Virus record (IMG/VR): IMGVR_UViG_3300045988_152007
Span: 60,475 to 124,474 of that record
Origin: a virus
DNA: 64,000 bases
Direction: 5' to 3' (one strand)
This document shows positions 24,006 to 55,629 of this stretch, piece after piece. The notes beneath the pieces were generated by a model, which was not told where the DNA came from, made no database searches, and saw nothing but the letters and a program-made list of their open reading frames with translations. The translations under genes and the position numbers were made by a program. Each line of letters opens with the position of its first letter. The first letter of the stretch is position 1.

Positions 24006-24023
24006 GAGGGCTTTTTAGCCCTC
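24006..24023 (-). repeat. conserved GC stem-loop GAGGGCTTTTtAGCCCTC immediately 5' of an RBS
   Basis: Related copies at 25585..25604 and 26337..26358. Each sits just upstream of CCAATAGAAAGGA / AAGGAGG and an ATG. Confidence 0.4.
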
Positions 24024-24544: not shown

Positions 24545-24918
24545 TTCATTTTTATCTGTTCCCTTGGAACAATTATATATTACCACACCCTATAGCAAAT
24601 GTCAATAGGAAAGTCAAATTTTTTTATTCGTCAATATGCACAAAGATTCTGGAAATATTTGGTATGGAATTATATACCATAAGCTGGTAGGATATGGGAA
24701 ATGGAATGTAATGTCAAATATGGTAGAATTTGGCTGGAAATATTCGGAATTGATATTAAATGGAAAATGCGGGGCGTGGCGAGCTTGCTGTGGATATATC
24801 AATTTCGCCACGCCCCGGCGAGGCAATTTATTTAATTAAAGTGATAATGAATTAAAGAAGATGATTTGAAAAATGGGCTGGAAACTGTTTCCAATTTCCA
24901 GCCCTTGGAATTTCAGGA

Positions 24919-25236
24919 TCAAACTGCCATATGAGCCAGATTCTGCCATTCATAAATCTTATTTACGCCCATTTCATTTGCAATTTCTCTTGCCTGCCGT
25001 CTGGTGTAGGCGTGTTCAGTGGTGCTGACGTAATATTTTCCATTTTTGAATTGAATACTGCAATTTCCAATCATTCGGTTCAGGGTTCTGGCAATTTCCA
25101 TTGCCTTTTCGGGCTGTTCGCATTCATATGTTGCGATATTCACCTGAAAACCGCCCTTGTACTTTTTGATTTTTCCGTTCTTGATGTTCAGGGTATCGCC
25201 ATCCTGCATTTTCCGAATAGTTCTCACGTTAATCAT
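24919..25236 (-). CDS. small protein, paralog pair member
   Basis: MINVRTIRKMQDGDTLNIKNGKIKKYKGGFQV resembles the N-terminus of 25259..25576. Confidence 0.45.
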   Translation of the reverse strand: MINVRTIRKMQDGDTLNIKNGKIKKYKGGFQVNIATYECEQPEKAMEIARTLNRMIGNCSIQFKNGKYYVSTTEHAYTRRQAREIANEMGVNKIYEWQNLAHMAV

Positions 25237-25258
25237 TTTTTATTTCTCCTCTCAAATA

Positions 25259-25576
25259 TTAAATGTAAAGGCAGGCAGGATTTCCACGCCATCTGTAAAT
25301 TGAAAGCTGATTACATTTCCTGCCAATTTCAACTGCCTCGCGTTTTGTGGACACTCGTTTAGAAATGTCAATGTAGTATCTGCCATTTTCAAGCCAAATG
25401 CCGCATGTGCCTTTGAACTCTCGAACCGCCTGTATTGCCATTTCAGGACTGATGACCTCGACGCCATTAGTAGCTACCTGATAGCCACTCTTGTACCTCT
25501 TGATTTTTCCATTTTTAAGTGTTAGGCCATCGCCGTCAGCCAGTTTCTTGATTGTGCGAATGTTAATCATATCAGA
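25259..25576 (-). CDS. small protein, paralog pair member
   Basis: MINIRTIKKLADGDGLTLKNGKIKRYKSGYQV. The ORF-track N-terminal extension was trimmed to the MINIR start, which has an upstream RBS. Confidence 0.45.
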   Translation of the reverse strand, partial: SDMINIRTIKKLADGDGLTLKNGKIKRYKSGYQVATNGVEVISPEMAIQAVREFKGTCGIWLENGRYYIDISKRVSTKREAVEIGRKCNQLSIYRWRGNPACLYI

Positions 25577-25604
25577 TATTTCCTTTCTATTGGTGGAGGG
25601 CTTT

Positions 25605-25790
25605 TCAGCCCTCCGGTTTATTTTCTTCGTACAGCAGCTCGCCGCGGCTGTATCTCTGGTAGTGGATCTCAAGTAAATCCAAATGGTATTCATAGTAGTC
25701 GGCGTCAATAGGGTCATCGAACGCCTCCTCTATAATCTCCTGAGTATGGTCATTGAACATTTTAATGACTTCGCTATGTTGATTTTTCAT
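25605..25790 (-). CDS. hypothetical acidic protein
   Basis: 61-aa ORF. Confidence 0.4.
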   Translation of the reverse strand: MKNQHSEVIKMFNDHTQEIIEEAFDDPIDADYYEYHLDLLEIHYQRYSRGELLYEENKPEG

Positions 25791-26012
25791 TTTAATCCTC
25801 CATCATCACGAAGAAATTCCAACTACTGTATTCAGGTCTGCCGCCAGCAGGATTATTATGGCGGACCACCTGACAAAATGAAACAGAAATCCAGAGCATA
25901 ATAATTATGCCAGATAATGTTAACGCGAGTTTGAGATTTTTCATTTTGAAATTTTCCTTTCGACTTTTGGATTCATGTGCTCGGTTGAATTGTCAGAAAG
26001 CGGTAGAGGGAC

Positions 26013-26312
26013 TCAAATGTCCCTCACCACTAACGTCAGGTGGTCGGCTGTATGCTCGATTGCCTGTATAATCTGATAGCTTGTGAAATGGTAGGTAGTT
26101 AGCAGACCAGAAGTAAATACCGCAGACCGACTGCCAAACCCTACGATTTCCAGTTCCTGCATGATGTAGAGCTTTTCTTCAAGTTCGCGGTAGAAGGCAG
26201 GCTGCCAAGGGCAGTTGAATGTGCTGGATAATTGCCATTTGCAATAATCAGTTTGAACATTGTTCTTATCAAGAAAACGGATCTCGGCATAGGGATTTCG
26301 TGCAGTTGCCAT
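26013..26312 (-). CDS. hypothetical protein
   Basis: 99 aa. Preceded by a GC stem-loop and CCAATAGAAAGGA RBS. Confidence 0.4.
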   Translation of the reverse strand: MATARNPYAEIRFLDKNNVQTDYCKWQLSSTFNCPWQPAFYRELEEKLYIMQELEIVGFGSRSAVFTSGLLTTYHFTSYQIIQAIEHTADHLTLVVRDI

Positions 26313-26346
26313 ATTGTACCATCCTTTCTATTGGAAGCCAAGGGTT

Positions 26347-26568
26347 TTAACCCTTGGCTCTGTAGGTTTCTTTGCCTTTCTCGAATGTGCTCATGACTTC
26401 ACCAGTCTGCATATCAATGACATCTCTGTCATTCTTTGCCCATATGCTGTAAGCGTGAGCCATACAACGTGCTGCGGTCAGGTTATGGTAGATGGTGCTA
26501 TACTGGCCAGTTGTGTGATTATAGATAGAATACATAATGTTATCCCCTTTCTGTGGTTGGTTGGGCAA
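26347..26568 (-). CDS. hypothetical protein
   Basis: 73-aa ORF. Confidence 0.4.
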   Translation of the reverse strand: MPNQPQKGDNIMYSIYNHTTGQYSTIYHNLTAARCMAHAYSIWAKNDRDVIDMQTGEVMSTFEKGKETYRAKG

Positions 26569-26904
26569 TTAGCCCAACCAAATTTGCTTACTTGTTGCGA
26601 TAGACCAGCGACGCCGACTTGCTGCCAGCCGCTCGACTTCCCACTTGACCCATTCAGAGCAACCGCCTTCGTCCATATCAGCGAAAATATGCTCTACTTC
26701 TTTATGGTCGCTCTTCATAGAGTATTCGGTATAGCTTGCTTCGGCGATCTGCTCAGCGATATAGTCTTTCTGGCCCATCAGCTTATGAAAGGTGGCCTTG
26801 CCATTAGGGTCAGAGAAATTGACCTTGCCCATGGCATTGTTAATGCGGATGATGGTGTTCTGCATAGCTTCCTTACGGATAGCTCTTCTATTGGTTCTGG
26901 TCAT
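26569..26904 (-). CDS. hypothetical protein
   Basis: 111-aa ORF. Confidence 0.4.
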   Translation of the reverse strand: MTRTNRRAIRKEAMQNTIIRINNAMGKVNFSDPNGKATFHKLMGQKDYIAEQIAEASYTEYSMKSDHKEVEHIFADMDEGGCSEWVKWEVERLAASRRRWSIATSKQIWLG

Positions 26905-26960
26905 AATAATTATACCTCCATATATTGTCAGTTGGTTGGTTGGTGGATGGGTGAAGAAGC

Positions 26961-27365
26961 TTATGCTTCTTCACCGTATAGTAAGTCGTGCAGTTTGTAG
27001 AAGAAGTCCTCAAGCATATGCTCGAAGATATCCGCCCATTCTTCGGCCTCGTCTTGTAAGTCTGTTAGTTTTTCATACGCGGCCTCATATGCGACACATG
27101 GGTTGCCGGCTTCCATATCCATATTATAGTCGGTATGTTCCAAGTCATACTCAGCACTATGAATAGCCCATGTAAGATTATCCCATTGCTGAATATTCTT
27201 CGCCGCATACTCATGATACTTGTCCAGCATACCATCATAGTCGAAGCTATTGCCTTGCATATGGTACTGTTTGACATACTTCACGATATCGTCAGCTTGT
27301 TCTGCTAATTCCTCTTTGATTGCTTTCTGTTTGTCCTGTTCACTAGTTTTAATTGCATATACCAT
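26961..27365 (-). CDS. highly acidic protein (D/E-rich)
   Basis: 134 aa with long acidic stretches. First gene behind the 27626-27654 promoter and a long leader. Confidence 0.45.
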   Translation of the reverse strand: MVYAIKTSEQDKQKAIKEELAEQADDIVKYVKQYHMQGNSFDYDGMLDKYHEYAAKNIQQWDNLTWAIHSAEYDLEHTDYNMDMEAGNPCVAYEAAYEKLTDLQDEAEEWADIFEHMLEDFFYKLHDLLYGEEA

Positions 27366-27618
27366 GATTTTACCAATCCTTTACATATTATTTGACTGTT
27401 AGTTGTCACCTATCCGTGTTACTATCTGCCGTAGGCGTTGGATTGCCCTACCGCTTGCACCGCACTTTCCATGTTCTACCATCGCGTCCGCTATGCGGTG
27501 CAGACGCTCGGCTTAGATTCACTTTTCAAGGTTCAACGCCGTTCGGTGCTTCGGCCTCTTTCCGGTCATTCTACTACATTTGCAAGGGCTTGCGTTGTTT
27601 GTGTTCCCTTGCTTTCGT
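27366..27618 (-). ncRNA. long GC-rich structured 5' leader or ncRNA candidate
   Basis: No credible ORF on either strand. Nested inverted repeats include gcaccgca/tgcggtgc and gccgtagg/cctaccgc. Lies between promoter TTGACA-17-TACAAT (27654..27626) and the gene start at 27365. Confidence 0.25.
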
Positions 27619-27625
27619 TGTACTC

Positions 27626-27654
27626 ATTGTACCATAGGACTTCCGACTTGTCAA
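27626..27654 (-). promoter_or_regulatory. promoter TTGACA-17-TACAAT driving the structured leader
   Basis: tgtcaa at 27649-54 and attgta at 27626-31 on the + strand. Confidence 0.4.
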
Positions 27655-27817
27655 GGACTTTTTTCAAAATTTCTTGAATTTTTTTCGCTTGGCGTTTTGC
27701 CTTGCTTGCGTTGTCCCGTGGTCAATTTCTGATTATAGAATAGCACCTATGCACGGAATTGTCAAGTATTTTTTTTCAAAAATCGAAATATTTTTTTTGG
27801 GGGTTAGTCGTATCTAA

Positions 27818-27877
27818 CTCACTTCACTCAAGTAAAGTAAGACAATAGACTTTAACACTTTAGTCAAGTGAAGTGGG
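27818..27877. repeat. long imperfect hairpin flanked by G-runs
   Basis: ctcacttcactcaagtaaagt ... actttagtcaagtgaagtg, flanked by ggggg and ggggggg. Confidence 0.4.
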
Positions 27878-27942: not shown

Positions 27943-28040
27943 TCTAAACTCAATTTCAATTTCAAAAAACGGGACAATAATCTAAACTCATTTTCAATTT
28001 CGGAAAACGATAATCATTTCAATTTTGGAAAACAATTTTT
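27943..28040. repeat. three tandem direct repeats of about 30 bp (TCTAAACTCAtTTTCAATTTCggAAAACG)
   Basis: tctaaactcaatttcaatttcaaaaaacg / tctaaactcattttcaatttcggaaaacg / atcatttcaattttggaaaac. Confidence 0.45.
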
Positions 28041-28053
28041 ATAAAAAAAAATA

Positions 28054-28075
28054 AGCGGGAAAATATTTTCCCGCT
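28054..28075 (-). terminator. terminator of the leftward early operon
   Basis: agcgggaaaatattttcccgct, with a T9 run on the minus strand. Confidence 0.5.
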
Positions 28076-28108
28076 TTAATTTTATTCCTTAATTACTCGA
28101 TACCCATT

Positions 28109-28309
28109 CTATTCTAACGTTTCTTTTGCAAGAGCTACGGCATCACTGGCTTCAGGACATTCAATACATAAAAAAGTTTTACCATCTACTTCGTCAATAT
28201 AAAATTCATAATTATGACCATTTACCATATGCAATTCTTCACGAAGTTTAGAGGGAATCATTAAACGTCCAACTGTATCGAGTTTTCTTGTATAAGCTGT
28301 TTTCAGCAT
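28109..28309 (-). CDS. AbrB/MazE-type swapped-hairpin DNA-binding protein
   Basis: 66 aa. RKLDTVGRLMIPSKLREEL. Confidence 0.5.
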   Translation of the reverse strand: MLKTAYTRKLDTVGRLMIPSKLREELHMVNGHNYEFYIDEVDGKTFLCIECPEASDAVALAKETLE

Positions 28310-30308: not shown

Positions 30309-31523
30309 TTGTCCAGCGAAGGTAAACAATATTACTGTGAAAAATGTAATAAAACTATGGATGGAACTTAGTTTTATACATCTAATAATTTAGATAAATA
30401 TCCTAATGATGGTAAATTACCAAAATGTAAAAAATGTATAACAATGCATGTAGATAATTGGAATCCGGATACTTATCTATGGATATTGCAAGAATGTGAT
30501 GTTCCTTACATTCCTGATTAGTGGAATTAGTTAATGGGTAAATTTGCGAAGGATAGAGCGAAAGTCACTGGAATGACAATATTAGGTCGCTATCTCTCTG
30601 CAATGAAATTAAATCAATGGAAAGATTATAGATGGAAAGATAGTCAATTCTTGCAAGACTTACAAAATAAAAAAATAGAAGAAACAATGAAGCAATAGGG
30701 ATATGATGTTCAAGATATTACTACGGCTATTCAACGTGCTTCATTTGCTTTGCCATCAGAAGAATTAAAAGAGCCGCCTCCTCCTGCCCCTCCTCCCCTA
30801 GATTTTGGAAATTCTGCAGAAGATTATTTTAAAGATAAATTAGATTTTGAGGTTCCTGATTTGGGCGCGGAGCTAACAGACGAAGATAAACGATACCTTT
30901 ATTTAAAATGGGGAAAAGGTTATAGCCCTGATGAATGGGTACGCTTAGAGCAATTATTTAATGAAATGATGTAGTCTTACGATATTTAGTCAGCAGGCCA
31001 TATTGATACATTAAAACTTGCCTGTAAGACATCATTAAAATCTAATTAGTTATTAGATATAGGTGATGTAGACGGCGCTCAAAAGATGATTAAAATGTAT
31101 GATTCTTTAATGAAATCAGGCAAATTTACTGCCGCATAGAATAAAGAAGAGTCTGGCGATTTCATTGATTCTGTTGGTGAATTAATAGAAATGTGTGAGA
31201 AACAAGGTTATATCGAAAGATATTACATTGATACTCCAAATGATAAAGTAGATTTTACAATTAAAGATATGCAAAAATATACACGCACTTTAATTGAACG
31301 AGAAACTAATCTTGGCAATATGATTGATTAGGCATTAAAACAAAACGCTAAAGAAGATGAATAGGCTAAAGAAAACGTCGAAGATACAATTGTTGATGAT
31401 GTTGATATGTCTATTGAAGACATTGAAAAAACTTTAGAAGATAAAGATATTGAAGACTTTAGTGAATTTTTAGATAATGAAACAGAGTTAGATATAGATG
31501 CTTTCTCTGATAGGGAAGATTAA
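30309..31523 (+). CDS. putative DNA-packaging protein (terminase small subunit candidate), TAG-recoded
   Basis: TTG start after AAAGGAGA. N-terminal zinc ribbon YYCEKCNKTM...CKKCITMH and acidic C-terminus. Frame verified through about 10 TAG to TAA at 31521-31523, which overlaps the ATG of the next gene. Confidence 0.4.
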
Positions 31524-33274
31524 TGGCGTTACAAGATTTACTTGACCTATCTACAAGTAGGAAAAAAATAGGTCTTTCTGAAGAACGTATTAATGCCGTA
31601 ATGCCAGTCATTCGTAAATATACTGCCTTTTGGCGCGAATATCCAGATTTATTTGTTGATTTTTTAGTACGAGGAACACGTACAGAATAGAAAGAAGGAG
31701 AATTTAAATTTTTCTTCTATTAGCGTGTTTTTTTAAGATGTGTAATGCGCTATCAGTACGTTTATGCAGTTTTCCCTCGTGCCTATTCTAAATCATTCTT
31801 ATCAGTTATGGCATTAATGGTTAGATGTATTCTTTATCCTGGTGTTCATTTATTTGTTACTTCGGGTGGTAAGGAACAAGGCGCGAGTATTCTACATGAT
31901 AAAGTTAATGAAATTTGTGATTTAATACCAAGTTTTAAACGCGAAATTGATTGGGGCCGAGGTAAGAGCCAAGAGAGTAAAGATAAAGTACGTTATGTAT
32001 TTAAGAATGGTTCTGTCCTTGATAATTTAGCTGCGAGAGAAAGTACTCGTGGTCAGCGTCGTCATGGTGGTCTAATGGAAGAATGTGTAGGTATTGATGA
32101 TTAGATTTTACGCGAAGTCATTATACCAGTTATGGCTATTCCTCGTAGAGCTAAGGATGGTACAACTCATGAAGAAGAAGCGGTAAATAAATCATAGATT
32201 TATATTACTACTGCTGGCTATAAAAATACTTATCCTTATGATAGATTAATTGGTTTATTAGTTCGTATGATTACATAGCCTGATAGATGTATGGTATTAG
32301 GTGGAACTTGGCGAACTCCTGTTGCTGTTGGATTACAACAGAAAACATTTATTACTGACCAAAAAAATGAAGGAACTTATAATGAAGCTTCTTTCGAACG
32401 TGAATATGAATCAATTTGGTCTGGTACTGTTGAAGACGCTTTCTTTAATGCAGAAATATTTAATAGAAATAGAATACTGAATTAGCCTGAATACGAAGCT
32501 TCTGGCCGTTCAAGTAAATTATCTTATTATATATTAAGTGTTGACGTAGGCCGTAAAGGATGCGATACTGTTGTTTGTGTATTTAAAGTAACGCCGCAAC
32601 CGCATGGTGAGCCAATTAAAAGTTTAGTTAATATTTATACTATGAATGATACACACTTTGAAGATTAGGCTATTAAACTTAAAAAATTATATTATAAATA
32701 TAAAGCTCGCAGAATTGTAATAGATGCTAATGGACTTGGTGTTGGTTTAGTAGATTTTATGGTTAAGCCATAGATTAATCCTGAAACTTCTGAAGTAATT
32801 CCTGATTTTGGAGTTTATGGTGGAACTCAGGATGATGCAGTTCAAGAATATAAAAAATATAAAACTAATAGTACAGAATTAGATGTTTTATATTTAATGA
32901 AAGCTAATGCACCAATTAATACTGAAGCCCATAGTATTACTTAGTCAGTATTAAATTCTGGTAAGATTAAATTTTTAATTGATGAACGAACTGCTAAATA
33001 GAAATTATTAACTACTAAAGTGGGCTAGAATATGACCACAGAAGCGCGATCTGATTATTTAAGACCATTCAGTTTAACTACTTCATTGCGTGAAGAGATT
33101 ATGAATCTGCGTGAAGAAAATGAAGGTTTAAATATAATTTTAAAACAAGCTAATAAAAGTATTAAAAAAGATAAATTCTCTGCATTAGAGTATGGATTAT
33201 ATTATATAAAAAAAGTAGAAGAAGATAAAAAGAAGAAAAAATTCCGGGCTGCTGATTGGATGTTTATGAATTAA
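31523..33274 (+). CDS. terminase large subunit, TAG-recoded
   Basis: ORF-track fragments 31745, 32291 and 33032 are all in frame with ATG 31523. Motifs GGLMEECVGIDD, ITTAGYKNT, and RNaseH-like nuclease ILSVDVGRKGCDTVVCVF. Confidence 0.65.
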
Positions 33275-46212: not shown

Positions 46213-46252
46213 AATATTATAATTAATTTCTAATTTAAATAGGAATATTAAA

Positions 46253-46287
46253 AGGCGAGAGGCTTTGTTCCTCTCGCCTTTTCTTTA
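46253..46287 (+). terminator. terminator/attenuator between chaperone and tape measure genes
   Basis: aggcgagaggctttgttcctctcgcct, followed by tttcttt. Confidence 0.45.
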
Positions 46288-46326
46288 TATATATAGAAAT
46301 TTATAATGAGAGAAAGGAGCTATTTT

Positions 46327-49300
46327 ATGGCTAATAACAGTGCTAATTATAATGTTAATATGCGATTTACAGCTGATACAGGTCAAGCTAAATAGCAATT
46401 ACGAGATTTACAAAGTTCATTAGATACTTTAATGAATTAGATAGCAACAAAAAATATTAAATTTTTTGATGTTAATGCCACTAAAAAAGAAATAGATGAA
46501 GCCTCGGCAGCAGTTTAGGAGTTAAAAATTGCTTTAGATTAGGCGACTAATGTTAATACTGGGCGTTTAGATTTATCAAAATTTTCAAAGAGTTTAAGCT
46601 AGAGTGGTTATACTCTTTAGGATTTTGCTACACACTTAGAGAATCTAGGCCCAACAGGTGATAAAGCATTTGTTGCATTAGCATAGTCTGTTATTAATGC
46701 TGAAGTTCCTTTAAAAAGAACTAACGCTATATTAGATAATTTTAAAAAGACATTAGCTAATACAGCCAAATGGCAAATTTCATCTAACTTAATGCATGGA
46801 GTATAGGGTTCTTTATAGAAAGCTTACTATTATGCAGAAGATTTAAATAGATCATTAAATGATATTCGTATAGTTACTGGATAGAGTAATGATTAGATGG
46901 CTGAGTTTGCTGAAAAAGCTAATAAGGCTGCTCAAGCATTAAGTACAACTACTACTAATTATACTAATGCTTCTTTAATTTATTATCAATAGGGTTTAAG
47001 TGATAAAGAAGTTGCTGATCGTACTGAAGTTACTATTAAAATGGCTAACGCCGCAGGCGAAAGTGCTTCTAAAGTATCTGATTAGTTAACTGCTGTTTGG
47101 AATAACTTCTATGATGGTAGCAAATCTCTTGAATATTATGCAGATGTAATGACTAAACTTGGTGCATATACTGCTTCTAGTACTGATGAAATTTCAGAAG
47201 GTATATAGAAATTCGCTTCTGTTGCTAATACTATTGGTCTTAGTTATGAATATGCTACATCTGCATTAGCTACATTAACTGCCAAAACACGTGAAAGTGC
47301 GAATACAGTAGGTAATAGCCTTAAAACCTTATTTGCACGTATTTAGGGTCTGACTCTTGGAGAAACTCTTGAAGATGGTACTGATTTAAATAAATATTCT
47401 AAAGCCCTTGAAAAAGTTGGTATTAGTATTAAAGATCAATAGGGTGAGTTAAAAGATATGAATACTATCCTTGATGAAATGATGAATAAGTGGGATAGTT
47501 TAAGTCGTGCTGAACAAGTGGCTCTTGCATAGACTGTTGGTGGTGTTCGTCAATACACTCAATTAGTTAATCTTATGGAGAATAAAGATTATTTTAAAGA
47601 GCTAGTTGGAGTGGCTAAAAATTCTGAAGGTACTTTACAAGAACAAGCTGATATTTATGCTGAAAGTTGGGAAGCTTCTAAAAAGCGAGTACAAGCTTCT
47701 CTTGAAGAAATTTATAAGCAATTAGTTAGTGATAAATTTTTTATCGGATTAAATGATACATTAAGTGATACATTAAATATTACAAGCAAATTGATTGATT
47801 CATTAGGCGGATTGCCTGGTGTATTAAGTGTTATTTCTACTTTAATGCTAAAAAGCTTCGGTCCTGATATTGTAAATAATATGCAGCGTATGGCTTCCAA
47901 TTTGTTTATTGACAGCGGAGCTGCTGAAAATTAGGCTGCGGTTATGAAGCAGTAGATGATAAATGTTTTAAAGACCTTTACAACTTATGAAGAAAAACCT
48001 GATTTAACAAAATAGGGTTCAGTTGAATTAGAAACAACTACAATGGTTAAAGCTGCAGAGGCTTCTTATGATTTATAGCTAGCAAATAATTAGTTAAATG
48101 AAACAGATAAATTAAGATTATAGACATTATTAAAAATTTCTTAGGCTTATGGACAAATAGCTATAGAATCTAAAAAAAGCATAGAAGCTCAACAAACTTA
48201 GAGTAATAACAATTTACGTAATGCTCGCAATACAATTTTTGAAGATAATAATAAAAAATTTGGTGGAGATAAGGGCGTAATTTATTTTGACAATAACTTA
48301 AAAAAAGGCCAAAAGATTGTTGATAATTTTTATAATGATAAAACAATGCAAGATTTAGAGTCTTTAAAAATTAATTCAAATGGTTCTTTTAAAGATTTTA
48401 TTTCTCAATTTGGTCAATTAGATTTAAATAATCAAAGATATAGTAAATTAAATTAGTTAATTCAATAGGGTAACAATTCTAATCTAAGTAATGGTGCTAA
48501 AGGTACTCTTAGAAAAGATATATTAGCTGAAGTTAATAATTTAAGAGACGTTAATCTTGAAATTGATAATTATGTTAATTAGAAAATTAAAGCAGAAAAA
48601 TTAACAAAAGCTTAGTCTAATGCTTTAAGATAGTGTCTTACAGATTACGTAAATGAGAAAGAGGCTCTTTTGTAGAACAAAGGAGCGGTTGAAAAATATG
48701 AGAGTGCTATTGAAGCTTTTAACGCAGAATTAAAAGCTAGTCAAGGATCTATATATAGTTTTTCTCAAGGATTAGTTTCTAGTTTTTAGGGTATTTCTCA
48801 ATTAGCTATTGGAATCAATAGTTTAAAAGGAATGTTTAATACTTTAAATAATAGCGAATTAGATTTTGGAGAAAAATTAACTTAGAGCATTACTTCGGCA
48901 AGTTTTGCTATTCCTTCTTTAATCAATGGAGTAAATTAGTTAGCTAGTGGATTAAAAGAAATTGGAACTAATTGGAAGGGACTAGGTACTAATATTTTAT
49001 CAATAATGACTGGTTTAGGAGGGTCTTTATAGGGTTCTGACTTATAGGCAGCTTTAAAGACAAAGATAGAGAATAGCTCTGGATTTAGAGCTAAAATTAT
49101 GCAAACTGGTCTTGATGCTTATACCGCCAAGCTTAAAGAATTGGGAGTAGCTGCTGGTTCTGCGGGAACTGCTGAATAGCAATTGGCAGCTAGTGGTGCA
49201 GCGACTCATGCAATGTTTACTAAATCTTTACTTGTTTTGGGTAAATATGCTTTAATAATTGGAGCAGTAGTTGCTGCCATTGCTGTATTGGTTAAAGTAT

Positions 49301-52300
49301 ATAATACAGCTTAGTCTTTTACTATAGAAGAACAAATTAAACGTTCTGAATAGGCTGTTGAGAGTTTTAAAAGTTAGTTAGAAGAAACAAAAAATAAAGC
49401 TGAATAGTTAAAATCAGTATTTGATAGTTATAGCTCTGTTAAATCTGCTTTAGATGAATGTACTGTTGGTACTAAAGAATGGCGTGCATAGTTAACTAAA
49501 GCTAATGAAGAAGCTCTTAATATTTTAAATACTTATCCTGAGCTAAAGAATATGGAAGGTGCTTGGGGCAAGAAAGATACTGGTGAAATTTGGATAGACC
49601 AAAGTGCTGTTGATAAATTATAGTCTATTTATGATAAATAGATTCTTCAATAGCAATATGCTTTAGCTAATGAACAAAGCAATTTAGAAGACTTAAATAT
49701 TGAAAAAGCTAAATAGGACTTAATAAGTAATCTTTAGGGTGTTCTTAATATTTAGAGTGGCAGTACAACTGGAGGATTAACAAAAAATGGACAATATACT
49801 TCAGTAATGCCAGGTATAGCAGATTTAATTTTAAATAATTAGGAAAATTTATAGAATAAAAGTTAGGAAGAACAAGTTAGTATTATTGAATAGGCATTAA
49901 AGAATAATGGATTTGAAACTCTCAATAACAGTACGACTTTAAATGATTATGCCTAGAAAATTGCAGATAAATTTAATACTGATGATGTTCAAGCTGCTAT
50001 ATCTAATGTCTCAAAAGTAATACAAGCAAATACTGATGCTACATTATAGGTTACGAAAGAAGCTTCAGTCCAATAGGCTCTTGGATTAGATACTATGTCT
50101 ACTGAAGATGCTAAAATAACTACTGCTTTGGTAGATGCTAATATTGAAGCTATAAAAAATAGTTTTTATAATGAGAATGGAACTATTAGTTGGGATGACG
50201 GAACTGGTAAGGACCGAGAAATAGGAACTCACGATGAAAATGCTGGTGGAGTTGGTAAAGGAGATCAAGCTTTACGTAATTTATGGGATGCTTATTTAGC
50301 AGCGATTAAAATAGATAAAAATGATAGTGAATATAAATTAGATTAGAAAAATTCTGTAATTGGTGAAGGTTAGAATAGATCATTCCAATTAGAAAATGGA
50401 AAAACTAAATCATTTTCAGAAGTTGCTACTGCGATAGCTACTATGTAGGCTATGGGAAAAGAACTTCAAACTACTTATGCTATGGCTCAAAAATTCTAGA
50501 CTGGTATGAGCAATCAAGGAACTGTAGGCCAAGGTATTTTAGAATTTTTTGGCAATGATGGTGATTTAAGTAATTTTACTCAAGATTAGCTTAAATAGTT
50601 AAAAAAAGATATAGAAAAAGGTTTTGAAGATGAAGATTTACAGAACTTAATTGGATAGAGTTTATTTGGCGAAGATTTTAATTTATTAAAACCTGAATAG
50701 CAAGAAACCGTAAAATCATATATGTCTAATATGATGAAAGAATTAGGCGTAACCAGCGGTAAAGAATTAGGTGAAGCCATAGTAGAAGAAGCATCTCACT
50801 AGATTACTAACATTGAGGATATAAATAATAATAAAGCATTTAAATATATATTAGGGCTTGAAGATGAAGATGATATATCAGAAGCAATTGATGAATTTGA
50901 AGGATATAGTGTTTCATTAAAATCTCGTATTTCTTAGATTGCAGAAGATATATTTAAAGTGGCAGGTAAAAATGGAGTCGCCGCGTTTACTGAAGCGATT
51001 AATACCATAGGAAAAGATTTAACTTTTGATTAGTTAAATAAAATAGCTGATTTTGATTGGTCTTCTGGAACTTGGGAAGAATTTATTGATACCCTAGAAG
51101 ATTTAGGTATTGTTGTGTCAGATGATGAAGGAGCTTGGAAAGGCTTCTATGATATGATGCAAGAAACTGCTAATAAATTGCCTATAGAAGATTTTACTAC
51201 TTTTAGAGATTTGTTAATTGAAATTTTTAACTTGATGGGCCAAGAAGTCGGTAGTTCTATCACTCAAGAAAAATATGATAAGATCACTGAAGGTTTTAAA
51301 GCTGCTGGATTAAATCCTGAAGATTATTATGTTTAGACTGGTCTGGATACCTATGTAAAAGTTAAAGATTTTGATACTGCTGCTAAGAATGCATTAATTC
51401 AGGCTGGAGTAGATAGAGCTGAAGAATAGCATAACGTTGCAGAGGCTCATCAAGAAGCTTGGGGATCCGGTATAAAACAAGGTGGATATATTTTTAATGG
51501 ACAAGAATATACTCAATTAGAGGCAATGCAAAAAGGTTTAACTGATGATTCTGGGGGATCCTTATTACAATAGGCTTTAGATATTTTTGGCAGTCCTGAA
51601 GAAATAGCAAAATTAGTTGGCACCGATGAAAGTGGTAATTATGATTTAGACTTCTATAAACGTTAGGATTCAGCTACTTAGGCTGCTATTATGCAAGGAA
51701 TAATAGATGCTTATATGGCTAATATTGATGGATCATATAATGCTGATTTATTAAGAACTAATGCTTATACTGATGCTAATTCAGTAAAAGAAATGAATCA
51801 AATGACAGGTTTTAATTTAGGTGATGAGGCTAGCTAGCAAGGTTTAGTAAGTTGGGCTGCTAAAAATCAAGATATTGAAGGTAATACTGAAGCTTTAAAT
51901 TAGTATAATTATGAAATGGAGTAGGCTGGAGATAATGCTAATGCCGCCCAAAAAGCTATTAATAATTTATATAATGCTTTACGTAATAATGAAATAAAAG
52001 AAGCTACCAAAGAAATTAGTGAATTAAAAACAAAATATAAAGAGCTGCGTGATGAAGGTGAAGATACTGCTGAAGTAGAAGCTGATTTAAAACAAAAAGT
52101 AAAAGATTTATTTAATTTTTCTGAATCAGATTATTAGATGAATCAACCATTAATAGAAAAATTTTTATGGGGTAATGATGATGAAGCAGCTTTAGCTGGT
52201 CAAGTCTTAGATATGTTTTCTCAAGTAGATAGTGCTTTAATCGAAAAAATAAATGAATCTGCGGGAAAATTAGATTTTTCAACATTATATACTGAAGCTC

Positions 52301-55300
52301 AATCTAAATTAACTGAAATAACTAATCTTTTATCTTAGAACGATGGATTTGTAGTTAATGGTAAAATTACAGCAGATGCTTCTTAGGCTTTAGCTGCCAT
52401 AACTCCTATCAGTGGTTCTTTAGAAGAAATGTGCGGATGGATTAATGCTATGGGCCAAGTAGGCATTCATTTCACTACTGATTAGCTATAGCAATTATTA
52501 GAATGTTTTGCTCAAATGGCTGATATTATGGGCGGTAAAGACATTAGTGATCTTACATCTGATGACGCTGCCAAGTTAAGAGATTTAAAAAGTCAAATAG
52601 GTGATATAGTTTCTGTTGCTTCTGAAGGTTCTGTTGTTACTCAAGGTGATGGCAGCAAATATTTAACCACTGAAAACGGGAATAAAGGTGGTGGCGGAGG
52701 CGGTGGAGGTAAATCTACTAAATCTGCTAATGATATTGGTAAAGAAATTCAAGATGAAGTATTAAAAACAAAAGAAAAGAAACGTGATCGTCTTGAAGCT
52801 TTACGTGAGGGAGCTAATCCAGAAGATTCTGCTAAATATATCCAAGAAGAAATAAAATTATTAAAAGAAGAGCAAGATATTCTTGAAGATTAGATTAAAT
52901 CTTGGAAAAAGTTATTAAAACTTAAAGTAGAAGAATTTAACAAAGAAAATCCAGAATTTGAAATAAAGCTTACTGATGATGGTGAAATTGCTAATGCTTC
53001 TGAGCTATGGGGTAAAGTTTGGGCTTAGTATCAAAAAAATCTTGAAGATGGCATGAGTGAAGAAGACCTGAATGAATGGTTTACTAAAATCAAAGATAGT
53101 CTTGATGGTCCTATGGGTATCCAATAGAACATTGATGAAAATGTCGCTCTTATCGCTCAGAAAGAAAAAGAAGCTGCTGAACTTGAACTCGAAGCCATTA
53201 CAAAAGCTATTGATTGGAAAGTTAAATAGATTGATTATTAGATTAAACGTCTTAATTATTATCAAGAAAAACTTCTTAAATAGGCCCATGGTAATAAACA
53301 AACTATTGAAGCAATGCTTGAAGGATTTGCTTACCAAGAGCAAGAAATGTTATAGCTCTTTGATAAAGGTGCTACATTACGTTAGGGTATTGATTAGTTG
53401 AACGCCGCGAAAGCTAAGTATCCAGGTTATGAACAAATGTTTGATGAATAGATACTTGAATATCAAAGTGATTTAATTGATGTTAATGAAGCTATTCTAG
53501 ATTTACGTAATGATATTGAAGATTTGGTTTAGAATGTTCTAGACTTGGCACTTGATGAAATTGATAAGTAGATAGAACGTCTTGATACTTATACATCGAT
53601 GCTTGACCATCTTAATAATATTATTGATTTATCTGGTCGCTCAATGCTTGATATGGGATTAAAAACTTAGATTGGTGCTACTAAGGTAGAAACAATGTTA
53701 GGTAAAATGAAATCCTTAAAAGCACAAATGGATGGTTTGGCTAAAGCAACTAAAGAGGCTTAGGCCGCTCTCGCTGATCGTCAGGCTGATGGTGATACAT
53801 CTTCTGTTAAATTCTGGGAGAATCAAGTTGAAGTATTAAAACAAGAAACTGAAAAAGCTTCTGATGAATTTTTAGCTTCTTGGGAAGAAACACTTGAAGC
53901 TGCTCAAGATTTATTTGAAATGCGTGTTGAAATGGCCGTTAATGTATTAAGTAATGCATTATCACCATTTGAAACTCTTGAAGATTTCCAAGACAAATAC
54001 GAAAAAGCAAAAACTATCAATGAAGAATATCTTGATGATGCCGAACGCTTATATGAATTAAATAAATTAAATCGTTAGCTAAATTTATAGCTGGCTGATA
54101 CTAATGACCTTTTAGCTAAACAAAAACTTAGAGACATTTAGCAAGAGATTCACGATCTTCAGGCCGATGGCGTCTAGATGAGCCAATATGATCTTGAGTA
54201 TTTGTAGAAGAAATATGACTTACAACTTGCTGAAATAGCTCTTATGGAGCAACAAAATTCCAAAACTTCAATGCGTTTAGTGCGTGATGCCGCTGGTAAC
54301 TGGACTTATGCTTATGATGCAGATGAAGAAAAAATTGAAGACGCCACATAGAAATATGAAGATGCGGTTCATGAATTAGGTAAGTTAAGTAAGGATTATA
54401 TTAATGACGTAAGTGAATAGTTAATTTAGAATCAAATTGATTTTAAAGAAGCCCTACAAGATCTTGATAAAAACTCTGCGGATTATTCAAATTAGCTATT
54501 ATCATTGCAAGAGTATTATGTTGAAAGACAAAGATATTTACTTGATGAATTAAATAAAGGTGTTGTAAATAGTGGATTAACATTCCATGATACTCTCTAC
54601 GGCCAAATGACTGATTTGTATGATTATAATGATGCTTATATGTTATTTGTTAATAATTCTAATACTACAATTAGTGAATTACAAACCAATTATAAAGATT
54701 GGCAAAAAGTTGTTGAAGCAGCAATGAACGTTGCTGGTACATCTTGGGAAAACTTTGGTTCTGATATGGGCGGTACTCTTGATAGTCTTGAAGAACATAT
54801 TCAAAAATTGTGTGATGAAATTGAAGAGCTTGTTAATGTATTAATGGGTTATATTTCTTAGTCTATTGGAATGGTTCTTGATTGGGAATAGAAATATTCT
54901 AAGCGGACTGATGAAGAGTTAGCTAAGAATGAATAGTATATTGATGGTAACTTTGGCAGTAGCGGCGGCGGAAGTGGTGCTAGAAATTTAGTTGGTGTTG
55001 ATTTAAGTGCTATTGCTATTCGTATGAAGAATGGGGAAAGTACTGTTGTTGATAAAAATGGTAACGTTTGGACGAGTATTGATGATGTAGTTACAGCCCG
55101 TAATGAAAAATTAGATAATATGCGTAATGAGGGTCAAGAATTAAAGAATGATTCTAGCACTGATTATTGGACTAAAGACGAAATGAAATAGATTACTAGC
55201 GAAAAAGATGAAAAATGGTTAGATGATATTTTAAACGGAAATGGTGCTGCTTCTGGTGCTTATACTGGTAATTGGGCTAAAGGACAAGGCTTTGGACTTG

Positions 55301-55629
55301 ATAATGGTAAAATTATTAAAGTCCATCCTAAAGAATTAATTCTTAACCAAAAAGATACTTCTAATATACTTCGTGCAGTTGATATTGTTCGTAATATGAA
55401 TGATTGGGTTGATAAACAAGTGCAATCAATGATTAATTTTGGATAGATAAAGTTGGGTAATTTAATTGATAAAACTACTCCACCTGTTTATGAAACTTAG
55501 CCAATTAAGCAAGAAGTTACTATCCAAGCAGACTTCCCAGGAGTTACTGATCATTATGAAATTGAAGAAGCATTGTCTAATCTTAGTAATAATGCGGCTC
55601 AATATATAAGTGCAAATAAATCTAAATGA
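46327..55629 (+). CDS. tail tape measure protein (about 3100 aa), TAG-recoded
   Basis: The N-terminal region matches the TP901-type TMP domain (MTKLGAYTASSTDEISEGI.KFASVANTIGLSYEYATSALATLTAKTRESANTVGNSLKTLFARI). Six ORF-track fragments are in the same frame. I verified 46327-50100 codon by codon: dozens of TAG and no TAA/TGA. TGA at 55627-55629. Confidence 0.6.

What the first reader, a model, noticed from the sequence alone, without database searches (positions are those of the whole stretch)
25800..27720. Higher-GC block with a roughly 250-nt structured leader/ncRNA candidate and repeated GC stem-loops placed just upstream of RBSs
From about 25.8 to 27.7 kb the GC content is visibly higher than the rest of the early region. 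Spurious long antisense ORFs (for example 26314..27000) arise from this. The block ends in a 250-nt GC-rich non-coding segment (27366-27618) with nested inverted repeats. It lies between a TTGACA-17-TACAAT promoter and the first gene (the highly acidic protein 26961..27365), which suggests a regulatory leader such as a riboswitch, a thermosensor or a processing site, or alternatively a stable ncRNA. Within the block, three genes are each preceded by a near-identical stem-loop (GAGGGCTTTTtAGCCCTC at 24006 and 25585; CCAAGGGTTTTAACCCTTGG at 26337) immediately 5' of CCAATAGAAAGGA-ATG. The block may be a horizontally acquired module with its own RNA-level regulation.
Basis: seen in the sequence. 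Interest (0 to 1): 0.5.

Follow-up and report, generated by a model that had tools for sequence, protein, structure and literature searches.

The report
Conserved pseudoknotted leader RNA in phage
The roughly 250-base non-coding stretch in front of the first early gene of this gut phage (one that reads TAG as an amino acid) is a real, conserved, folded RNA that matches no described family and most likely controls whether that gene is translated, while the repeated GC hairpins are conserved gene-boundary structures, not terminators.

Summary
The block 25800-27720 has the highest GC of the window. A TTGACA-17-TGnTACAAT promoter sits at 27654-27626 on the minus strand. A non-coding leader of about 254 nt follows, then an acidic 134-aa ORF. 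GC hairpins lie at most gene junctions.

The leader is a structured RNA. It scores nothing in Rfam and its MFE z-score is weak. However, 28 distinct homologues from human and pig gut contigs support nine helices, three of them pseudoknot pairings: 94.6% of cells are paired, and 16 pairs show compensatory changes against about 8 in shuffles and 0-5 in slid controls. Invariant G·U pairs place the fold on the sense strand.

The 3' half (module A) is more conserved than the downstream ORF. In some relatives an unrelated, also structured, module B replaces it at the same breakpoint. Both modules carry a 6-7 nt anti-SD complementary to the conserved extended SD, GGAUUG. In module A the same bases also pair with an SD mimic (GGAY), and that pairing is supported by covariation.

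Best reading: a new cis-acting translational riboregulator with an unknown trigger. The intercistronic hairpins hold the upstream stop codon in or at the loop and covary. They are probably stabiliser or processing elements. Horizontal acquisition is not supported.

The parts
27737..27765 (-). Upstream promoter-like unit (TTGACA-17-TATTCT here; TTGACT-16-TATAAT in relatives L003 and L004). It is a tandem duplicate of the main promoter unit, including the first ~20 transcribed bases.
   Evidence: (repeat families D1 and D20)
27626..27654 (-). Main early promoter TTGACA-17-TGnTACAAT (sigma-A/sigma-70 type with extended -10). It is preceded by an A-rich tract.
   Evidence: both hexamers and the TGG before the -10 are conserved in the four relatives aligned, and the same motif is readable in the homologues extracted
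27366..27619 (-). 5' leader RNA of about 254 nt. The transcription start near 27619 is inferred from the position of the -10 element and was not measured.
   Evidence: one copy in the window, 293.9 bits
27582..27612 (-). P1: 5'-proximal hairpin GCAAGGG/CCCUUGC with a 17-nt A/C-rich loop. Relatives have CAAGAGGAC/GUUCUCUUG instead.
   Evidence: helix 1: 6 of 9 pairs with changes on both sides
27538..27564 (-). P3 hairpin GCCG/CGGC (variants GCGG/CCGC and GCUG/CAGC in relatives). A possible pairing of upstream CGG (27562-27564) with loop CCG (27544-27546), called PK0, is invariant and therefore untested.
   Evidence: helix 3, pair 77/91: GC 13, CG 11, UA 3
27478..27512 (-). P4 (GCCG 27509-27512 with UGGU 27478-27481) plus hairpin HpA1 (CGUCUGC 27500-27506 with GCGGACG 27485-27491).
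   Evidence: helix 4: C-G to U-A in L039 and L048; helix 5: U-A to C-G in 7 sequences
27459..27499 (-). PK1: the HpA1 loop ACCGCAUA (27492-27499) pairs with AGUGCGGU (27459-27466). The joining strand AGAACAUGGAAA is nearly invariant.
   Evidence: G-C to A-U in L066; one extra C-G pair in the L003 group; A.C mismatch in 3 sequences
27428..27454 (-). HpA2 hairpin GCGGUAGG/CCUACGGC. Its 11-nt loop carries the anti-SD CAAUCC (27440-27445).
   Evidence: helix 7: 2 pairs with compensatory change
27412..27415 (-). PK2 3' strand GGAU, an SD mimic that pairs with AUCC (27440-27443) in the HpA2 loop.
   Evidence: helix 8: 100% paired, 2 of 4 pairs compensatory; this helix was not part of the model used to align
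27393..27408 (-). HpA3: small hairpin UGAC/GUCA with an 8-nt loop.
   Evidence: helix 9: 2 compensatory pairs, both in L043
27374..27382 (-). Shine-Dalgarno sequence AAAGGAUUG. The extension GGAUUG is complementary to the anti-SD in both leader module types. The start codon ATG is at 27363-27365.
24919..27365 (-). Early operon of 8 small ORFs: 26961-27365 (134 aa, pI 4.3), 26569-26904, 26347-26535, 26013-26312, 25792-25944, 25605-25790, 25259-25570 and 24919-25236. None matches a Pfam or PHROG family.
   Evidence: the same genes are called in relatives
26950..26975 (-). Intercistronic hairpin after gene 1 (11 bp). The stop codon UAA lies in the loop and the 5' arm is the last codons of the gene.
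26557..26581 (-). Intercistronic hairpin after gene 2 (10 bp, stop codon in the loop), followed by the next RBS. The arms covary in relatives (UUGGUUGGGC to UCUGGUUGAGCU to UAUCUGGUUGGCU).
26335..26360 (-). Intercistronic hairpin after gene 3 (11 bp, stop codon in the loop), followed by CCAAUAGAAAGGA. Relatives L008 and L040 have GGGCUAUGGC/GCCAUAGCCU instead.
26002..26028 (-). Intercistronic hairpin after gene 4 (GGUGAGGGAC/GUCCCUC-UACC, with the stop codon UGA in the loop).
25595..25614 (-). Intercistronic hairpin after gene 6 (GGAGGGCU/AGCCCUCC, with the stop codon UGA at the stem-loop junction), followed by CCAAUAGAAAGGA.
24875..24904 (-). Intrinsic terminator that ends the operon (13-bp stem, GAAA loop, then AUUUUUC).
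   Evidence: conserved in relatives

Best explanation
The segment is the 5' untranslated leader of the first early operon of a phage of about 186 kb that infects Bacillota and reads TAG as an amino acid. It folds into a specific RNA with two parts.

- The 5' domain consists of hairpins P1 and P3 and is shared by all relatives.
- The 3' module of about 140 nt (module A) consists of P4-HpA1 with pseudoknot PK1, HpA2 with pseudoknot PK2, and the small hairpin HpA3.

Proposed mechanism (inferred). Six bases in the HpA2 loop, CARUCC, act as an anti-Shine-Dalgarno sequence. They can pair with a nearby SD mimic (GGAY, forming PK2), which leaves the ribosome-binding site free. Alternatively they can pair with the real, unusually extended SD (GGAUUG), which blocks initiation on the acidic first gene. 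The highly conserved P4-HpA1-PK1 core would act as the sensor that biases this choice in response to an unknown ligand, protein or RNA. Module B, which replaces module A in some relatives, is a different sensor wired to the same SD through its own anti-SD (UUAAUCC).

The GC hairpins at gene junctions are a separate feature. They are conserved RNA stem-loops built from the last codons of each gene, with the stop codon in or at the loop. They most likely protect or delimit cistron-sized mRNA segments (stabiliser or processing elements) and do not terminate transcription.

Shown: the non-coding status, the fold, its strand, its conservation, the module swap and the complementarities. Inferred: transcription from the predicted promoter, the switching, and its effect on translation.
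For: 1. The segment is non-coding, lies downstream of a near-consensus promoter, and has no terminator before the ORF.
2. Homologues occur upstream of the same gene in at least 35 distinct gut-metagenome sequences.
3. Covariation on 28 distinct sequences: 94.6% of cells are paired, against 29-38% when partners are slid. Sixteen pairs change on both sides, against 7.9 +/- 1.3 in shuffles (0 of 500 shuffles reach 16) and 0-5 in slid controls.
4. The pseudoknot helices PK1 and PK2 and helix P4 were not in the model used for alignment, yet all three show compensatory changes.
5. G.U pairs that are invariant in 28 of 28 sequences (129/142 and 119/153) would be A.C on the other strand. The fold therefore belongs to the sense transcript.
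6. Module A averages 90.4% pairwise identity, against 76.1% for the adjacent CDS and 59.9% at third codon positions. The single-stranded joining regions are nearly invariant.
7. Module B (7 distinct sequences) replaces module A exactly after ...AAGUGAAU and occurs with both P1 classes. Its consensus fold contains a 7-bp UUAAUCC:GGAUUGR helix over the SD.
8. In 26 of 28 module-A leaders the HpA2 loop is complementary to GGAUUG over 6 bp (-8.6 kcal/mol). Shuffled loops average about -4, and 0-4% of them reach the observed value.
9. The extension 'UUG' of the SD is conserved in 34 of 35 leaders, although pairing with 16S rRNA does not require it (the 16S point rests on general knowledge).
Against: - There is no Rfam match and no known aptamer, so no ligand can be named.
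- MFE z-scores are weak.
- Nested-only folding predicts the SD to be mostly unpaired in module A. That model cannot represent a pairing between a hairpin loop and a downstream strand.
- When the anti-SD loop mutates (L033, L039), PK2 is what gets compensated or extended. Complementarity to the SD drops to -5.2 and -3.1 kcal/mol. Selection is therefore demonstrated for PK2, not for the SD pairing.
- In module-B sequence L045 a change in the SD is not compensated.
- Several compensatory events rest on one or two sequences, and the sequences are closely related.
- The AbrB/MraZ-like gene upstream is even more conserved than the leader. High identity alone is therefore weak evidence.
- No transcript data are available.
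Confidence: 0.4

Rival explanations
1. The structured leader and the junction hairpins serve mRNA stability or processing only. P1 would be a 5'-terminal protective stem-loop. The leader core would be an RNase (III, Y or J1) recognition or blocking structure. The intercistronic hairpins would be 3' and 5' protective ends of processed cistrons, as in the T7 early region (leader site R0.3 and RNase III sites between early genes) or SP82 early RNAs in Bacillus. There would be no sensing.
For: Tandem promoters, a long leader, an acidic first gene and a hairpin at almost every junction copy the T7 early layout (the T7 facts are general knowledge). P1 begins a few nucleotides from the predicted 5' end and covaries strongly. 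The hairpins lack U-tracts and are followed within 3-10 nt by the next RBS. They are enriched (6 against 0.46 expected) and covary. The phage's nearest relatives infect Bacillota.
Against: A stabiliser does not need about 140 nt with two pseudoknots and near-invariant single-stranded segments. It also does not explain an anti-SD complementary to the SD in two unrelated modules. No duplex is long enough (about 20 bp) for a classical RNase III site.
Confidence: 0.22
2. The leader, or its 3' module, acts in trans as a non-coding RNA made at the very start of infection. It could be a decoy or inhibitor of a host factor or defence system, or a regulator of other phage transcripts. It would be either released by processing or active while still attached to the mRNA.
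For: Conservation extends to unpaired bases, as expected for a specific binding surface. The module is exchangeable as a cassette, independently of gene 1 and of the 5' domain. It is the first RNA made from a strong promoter.
Against: There is no terminator or obvious processing site between the module and the ORF. There is only one copy and no complementary target elsewhere in the 64-kb window. Every homologue found sits in the same cis position, directly upstream of the same gene and SD.
Confidence: 0.13
3. The leader is a processive antitermination element, like HK022 put, lambda nut or Bacillus EAR. It would modify RNA polymerase so that it reads through the hairpins inside the operon.
For: The position just downstream of an early promoter and ahead of a multi-hairpin operon matches put and nut. 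EAR also contains a pseudoknot (general knowledge). Gene 2 has a conserved basic N-terminus, xxRxNRRxxRKEA.
Against: The internal hairpins lack U-tracts and are not predicted terminators on the sense strand. Only the hairpin at 24875-24904 is. No Rfam family scored anywhere in the leader even at E up to 10; that the library holds an EAR model is my recollection. No antiterminator family matches any operon protein, and the gene 2 structure model is of low confidence.
Confidence: 0.07
4. There is no RNA-level function. The conservation would reflect recent common ancestry or a DNA-level element (a protein-binding or replication site), and the apparent covariation would be chance among related sequences.
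For: The neighbouring AbrB/MraZ-like gene and terminator are 92-100% identical among relatives, so parts of this region diverge little regardless. MFE z-scores are not significant. Shuffle controls do not account for phylogeny (caveat stated in the output).
Against: Slid-partner controls, which keep relatedness, give 0-5 double-change pairs against 16 observed, and 29-38% paired against 94.6%. Compensatory changes occur in nine separate helices, including ones not used for alignment. The invariant G.U pairs are strand-specific. Gene 1 immediately downstream diverges to 76%.
Confidence: 0.05

Closest known systems
Translational riboswitches and riboregulators with an anti-SD / anti-anti-SD expression platform and H-type pseudoknot sensors (for example SAM-II, preQ1-II)
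   Same: A 5' UTR location; a compact pseudoknotted core with invariant unpaired bases; an anti-SD that can pair with either the SD or a mimic; no terminator.
   Different: No sequence or structure match to any Rfam family. The ligand is unknown. The anti-SD sits in a hairpin loop about 60 nt from the SD. The downstream genes are phage ORFs of unknown function, not metabolic genes. The sensor module is swapped for an unrelated one in close relatives.
Phage T7 early region (tandem promoters A1-A3, leader with RNase III site R0.3, acidic Ocr as first gene, RNase III hairpins between early genes)
   Same: Tandem strong host-type promoters, a leader of a few hundred nucleotides, a small very acidic first protein, and a stem-loop at nearly every early gene junction.
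   Different: The hairpins here are short perfect stems of 8-13 bp with the stop codon in the loop, not irregular RNase III substrates of about 2x10 bp. The acidic protein shows no fold similarity to Ocr or anything else. The host is a Bacillota member. Cleavage has not been tested.
Lambda N leader (nutL plus RNase III-sensitive hairpin) and the T4 gene 32 translational operator (5' pseudoknot followed by an unstructured A/U-rich tract up to the RBS)
   Same: A long structured leader of the first early gene. A pseudoknot is followed by an A/U-rich linker (AAAUAAUAUGUAAAGGA) to the RBS. Autogenous or protein-mediated translational control is plausible.
   Different: No boxA or boxB and no known RNA-binding protein in the operon. 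There are two pseudoknots and an anti-SD instead of cooperative protein spreading.
T4-type PeSL cassettes (early promoter plus stem-loop repeats flanking small ORFs) and 5' stabiliser stem-loops of Bacillus mRNAs (SP82, ermC, aprE)
   Same: Repeated, partly near-identical stem-loop plus RBS units between small early genes of a mosaic region. The stems lie close to the 5' side of each RBS.
   Different: No promoter accompanies most of the hairpins here. The 5' arm is coding and the stop codon lies in the loop. Neither a role in recombination nor a role in stability has been tested.

Membership tests
Any Rfam 15 family (riboswitches, T-box, ribozymes, EAR, pRNA, 6S, tmRNA and others) | Score at or above the family's gathering threshold against its covariance model | tested here: not met
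   There were 0 matches at gathering threshold in the whole window. No match at all, even at E up to 10, falls inside 27366-27625. Leader types A and B of relatives are also negative.
tRNA / tmRNA | Cloverleaf or tRNA-like domain detectable by ARAGORN | tested here: not met
   No tRNA or tmRNA was found in the window.
Riboswitch (generic definition) | Conserved structured aptamer supported by covariation in a 5' UTR | tested here: met
   Nine helices, 94.6% paired, 16 pairs with compensatory change. The leader lies between the promoter and the ORF.
Riboswitch (generic definition) | Expression platform with mutually exclusive pairings that involve the SD or a terminator | tested here: inconclusive
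   The anti-SD CARUCC is complementary both to the SD GGAUUG and to GGAY. Module B has an SD-sequestering helix in its consensus fold. Selection is shown only for the PK2 pairing.
Riboswitch (generic definition) | Direct binding of a small-molecule ligand that changes the fold | not testable with these tools
   This needs in-line probing, SHAPE or ITC. The downstream genes give no hint of a ligand.
T-box leader | Stem I with specifier loop, the conserved T-box sequence, an antiterminator/terminator, and a downstream aminoacyl-tRNA-related gene | tested here: not met
   No Rfam T-box match, no terminator before the ORF, and the downstream genes are unrelated. A conserved UGG-UAG-A is noted, but UGGU is paired in P4.
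Intrinsic (Rho-independent) terminator, for the junction hairpins | GC-rich stem followed directly by a U-tract on the transcribed strand | tested here: not met
   On the sense strand the hairpins are followed by CCAAUAG, CCACAG or CAUCCACC. Of the operon hairpins discussed here (24850-27365), only 24875-24904 passes the terminator scan on the minus strand, apart from a 9-bp stem inside gene 1 at 27007-27028 that the scan also lists.
RNase III processing site (T7 / SP82 type) | Extended duplex of about 20 bp, often with an internal loop, that is cleaved in vivo | tested here: inconclusive
   The stems are perfect and 8-13 bp long, shorter than classical substrates. Cleavage cannot be tested here.
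Processive antitermination RNA (put / nut / EAR) | Terminators inside the operon that are read through, together with the family's sequence motifs | tested here: not met
   No internal sense-strand terminators among the junction hairpins, and no Rfam match of any kind in the leader. Modification of RNA polymerase cannot be tested here.

The most novel reading that the evidence does not exclude
Modules A and B are two previously unknown sensor RNAs (orphan riboswitch or trans-factor-sensing classes) that gate translation of the first early operon of phages that recode TAG. They could tie early-gene shut-off to a signal that appears during infection. One candidate is the phage's amber-suppressor tRNA, since a conserved UAG-A follows UGGU in the module A core. 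A host metabolite is another. The cassette-like exchange would let related phages respond to different signals.
Probability: 0.15. Interest if true: 0.8.

Novelty: new variant of a known kind. Interest (0 to 1): 0.5.

Why it matters
Almost nothing is known about how large gut phages that recode TAG regulate their early genes, which still use the standard code. This finding gives a concrete, widely distributed RNA element (human, pig and Hadza gut samples; contigs up to about 190 kb). It has a testable secondary structure, two pseudoknots and a simple mutational prediction (anti-SD against SD mimic against SD).

If the element senses a ligand or factor, it adds one or two new regulatory RNA classes and a handle on the early-to-late switch in recoded phages. 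If it does not, it is still a clean example of modular leader exchange and of covarying hairpins that hold the stop codon in the loop at gene boundaries.

Tried and rejected
- Rfam at gathering and permissive thresholds on the window and on four relatives gave nothing in the leader.
- ARAGORN found nothing.
- BLASTN of 25-29 kb against GenBank phages gave no match.
- MFE z-scores were not significant on either strand. Thermodynamics alone would have dismissed the element.
- RNAalifold on the raw MAFFT alignment missed the covarying helices because P1 and P3 were misaligned. This was fixed with a covariance-model alignment.
- A small-ORF reading of the leader, including TAG and TGA read-through frames, was rejected because of start loss and frameshifts in relatives.
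- There is no second copy and no complementary target in the window.
- An IMG/VR scan for module B returned only chance hits. The genome-contig scan returned one true hit, L033, in a 'Mollicutes' MAG.
- SD accessibility from nested partition functions showed no consistent sequestration in module A. The method cannot model loop-to-downstream pairings.
- Module type does not correlate with the gene 1 sequence. It also does not correlate with the 66-aa or 75-aa AbrB/MraZ-like variant.
- The acidic protein is confidently all-helical (pLDDT 81.5) but has no fold match in PDB or BFVD. The Ocr-like DNA-mimic idea therefore stays a guess.
- The gene 2 structure model is too poor to search with.
- Pfam and PHROGs gave nothing for operon genes 1-8.
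- Horizontal acquisition found no support (synteny in all relatives; no outside homologues).
Full report
**Context.** The window is part of a phage genome. Small standard-code genes run leftwards on the minus strand from about 28 kb. The plus-strand genes from 29 kb onward are open only if TAG is read as a sense codon. With TAG recoded, ORFs of 3125, 1142 and 1104 aa appear, where the standard code gives almost nothing above 400 aa.

One of these recoded ORFs is a large terminase. Its nearest GenBank relatives are phages of Bacillota: Geobacillus E3 at 47%, Enterococcus VRE9_4 and H1 at 45%, Phass-1 at 42%, and SPbeta-like YonF. Related contigs reach 185-193 kb and come from human, pig and Hadza gut samples. 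The finding therefore lies at the start of the leftward early region of a large gut phage that recodes TAG. There is no tRNA in the window.

**Checking the observation.** The GC claim is correct. The block 25800-27720 is 0.444 GC, against 0.330 overall, and it is the maximum of all windows of that length (z 2.5). The right edge at about 27.7 kb is sharp. The left edge is gradual, because the whole 11-28 kb early region is GC-richer at 0.385.

The promoter TTGACA-17-TGnTACAAT is at 27654..27626 on the minus strand. A second, duplicated promoter unit lies 111 nt upstream at 27765..27737. The leader 27366-27625 is 0.485 GC and has no sense ORF. The first gene, 26961..27365, encodes a 134-aa protein with pI 4.27.

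The long antisense ORF 26314..27000 exists. It is not maintained in relatives, where the longest antisense frame ranges from 100 to 237 aa, while the three sense genes are called everywhere. It is spurious.

**Is the leader a structured RNA?** Rfam finds nothing, even at E up to 10, inside the leader. The MFE z-scores are -1.36 (sense) and -0.98 (antisense). On those tests alone the idea would fail.

Related sequences change the picture. Scans with protein and DNA patterns, plus contig look-ups, recovered the same leader upstream of homologues of the acidic gene. The sources were IMG/VR, JGI and ENA metagenomes, Logan assemblies and one 'Mollicutes' MAG contig. This gave 28 distinct 'type A' leaders of 259-265 nt.

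After realignment with a covariance model, I tested a nine-helix structure. It comprises P1, P3, P4, HpA1, HpA2 and HpA3, plus three crossing pairings: PK0, PK1 and PK2.

- 94.6% of cells form standard pairs, against 29-38% when partners are slid by 1-3 columns.
- Sixteen pairs carry changes on both sides, against 7.9 +/- 1.3 in column shuffles (0 of 500 shuffles reach 16) and 0-5 in slid controls.

The clearest compensatory cases are these:

- P3: GCCG/CGGC to GCGG/CCGC to GCUG/CAGC.
- HpA1: U-A to C-G in seven sequences.
- HpA2: G-C to A-U at two positions.
- P4: C-G to U-A in L039 and L048.
- PK2: A-U to G-C, and C-G to U-A.
- PK1: G-C to A-U in L066, plus one extra C-G pair in the L003 group.

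P4, PK1 and PK2 were not in the alignment model, so they are not fitted to it. G.U pairs that are invariant in all 28 sequences would be A.C on the plus strand. The fold therefore belongs to the sense transcript.

The only candidate small ORF in the region loses its start codon and its frame in relatives.

Some caveats apply. The sequences are closely related, and several events are single-lineage. PK0 never varies, so it is untested. Three sequences have an A.C mismatch in PK1.

**Conservation.** Module A (columns 118-240) averages 90.4% pairwise identity. The adjacent CDS averages 76.1%, with 86% at second and 59.9% at third codon positions. Long unpaired stretches such as AGAACAUGGAAA are nearly invariant. 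However, the AbrB/MraZ-like gene upstream is 92-100% identical among relatives. Identity alone is therefore not decisive, and the covariation is the stronger argument.

**Modularity.** Seven distinct relatives keep the promoter and the 5' domain (P1, P3, up to ...AAGUGAAU). They then carry an unrelated 3' module of about 135-150 nt, 'type B'. Type B occurs with both sequence classes of P1 and does not track the gene 1 sequence. The leader is therefore assembled from exchangeable parts by recombination within the clade. Type B is also structured: it has a covarying stem (AUAACGA/UCGUUAU to GUUAGUG/CACUGAC) and a 12-bp hairpin. It is also absent from Rfam.

**Mechanism.** There is no terminator between the fold and the ORF, so any cis control would act on translation or stability.

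In the type B consensus fold, UUAAUCC pairs over 7 bp with the SD region GGAUUGR.

In type A, the HpA2 loop CARUCC is complementary to the same GGAUUG over 6 bp in 26 of 28 sequences. The duplex energy is -8.6 kcal/mol. Shuffled loops average about -4, and 0-4% of them reach the observed value. The same loop bases form PK2 with GGAY, an SD look-alike 35 nt upstream of the real SD.

Two unrelated modules thus each present an anti-SD to the same unusually extended SD. One of them also has a competing, covariation-supported partner. This is the layout of a translational riboregulator, and it is my best explanation.

The evidence is incomplete. Where the loop mutates (L033, L039), PK2 is compensated and SD complementarity falls. 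Nested folding predicts a mostly open SD. Nothing identifies the trigger.

**The junction hairpins.** After genes 1, 2, 3, 4 and 6, and at 24006 in the next operon, the last three or four codons form the 5' arm of a stem of 7-11 bp. The stop codon (UAA or UGA, never UAG) lies in the loop or at its edge, and the next RBS follows within 3-10 nt.

Six stems of 8 bp or more occur in the operon, against 0.46 expected. They keep their positions in relatives, and the arms covary with the coding change, for example UUGGUUGGGC to UCUGGUUGAGCU and GAGCCAAGGGU to GGGCUAUGGC. They lack U-tracts, so they are not terminators. The real terminator is at 24875-24904.

Stabiliser or processing elements, in the manner of T7 or SP82 early RNAs, are the most economical reading. 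This is untested.

**What the operon encodes.** No gene of the operon matches Pfam or PHROGs. The acidic protein is a confident four-helix model without structural neighbours. The gene 2 model is unreliable.

**Horizontal transfer.** The operon and its leader are syntenic in all relatives, and no homologues were found outside the clade. The 'acquired module' idea is therefore not supported. Mosaicism within the clade is evident.

**Verdict.** The leader is a real, previously undescribed structured RNA with two supported pseudoknots and an exchangeable sensor module. Translational control through an anti-SD / SD-mimic toggle is the leading but unproven mechanism (confidence about 0.4). mRNA stabilisation or processing is the main rival.

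Noticed in passing
window 29000-64000 (+): The late genes are open only if TAG is read as sense. ORFs of 3125 aa (46252-55629), 1104 aa, 1142 aa, terminase (31511-33274) and others appear with TAG recoded, whereas the standard code gives seven ORFs of 250 aa or more in the whole window. No suppressor tRNA, and no tRNA of any kind, lies within these 64 kb. The early operon uses only UAA and UGA stops.
   Followed up: partly
window 27690-27766 and 27580-27655 (-): Tandem duplication of the promoter unit, including the first ~20 transcribed bases (ACAACGCAAGCAAGGCAAAAC and ACAACGAAAGCAAGGGAACAC). The upstream copy is followed by its own small hairpin, which swaps arms between relatives (GGC..GCC here, GCC-GCAA-GGC in L001).
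   Followed up: partly
window 27820-27875: Inverted repeat with 19-nt arms (CACTTCACTCAAGTAAAGT ... ACTTTAGTCAAGTGAAGTG, 84% complementary, 18-nt spacer) about 60 nt upstream of the upstream promoter. It is 83-90% conserved in relatives. It could be an operator, for example for the adjacent AbrB/MraZ-like protein.
   Followed up: no
window 27943-28036: Two to three direct repeats of about 29 nt (TCTAAACTCAWTTTCAATTTC..AAAACG, spaced 38 and 25 nt apart), lying between the bidirectional terminator at 28053-28076 and the promoters. They look iteron-like and are only partly conserved.
   Followed up: no
window 28109-28309 (-): A 66-aa AbrB/MazE/MraZ-like protein (Pfam MraZ 1.9e-5; PHROG 'antitoxin'). 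Its gene is 92-100% identical at the DNA level among relatives, far more than the neighbouring genes. It exists in 66-aa and 75-aa versions.
   Followed up: partly
window 24770-24817 (-): A GC-rich inverted repeat (CGGGGCGTGGCGA ... TCGCCACGCCCCG, 18-nt arms, 89% complementary) followed by CAUUUUCC. It lies just after the operon terminator and before the next promoters (24717, 24605). It may be a second terminator or an attenuator.
   Followed up: no
window 25259-25570 and 24919-25236 (-): Genes 7 and 8 of the operon are paralogues (MINIRTIKKLADGDG... and MINVRTIRKMQDGD...). Both are basic (pI 9.8 and 9.6) and of unknown function.
   Followed up: no
L033 (CAMELE010000019.1): A 37.8-kb contig carrying the same leader and gene is binned in an 'uncultured Mollicutes bacterium' gut MAG. 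This is either a host hint or a binning artefact.
   Followed up: no
window 27392-27677 (+): All three plus-strand frames are open across the leader (ORFs of 81, 37 and 79 aa). The plus strand here is very A-poor (AT skew -0.43), so stop codons are rare. These ORFs are composition artefacts.
   Followed up: yes
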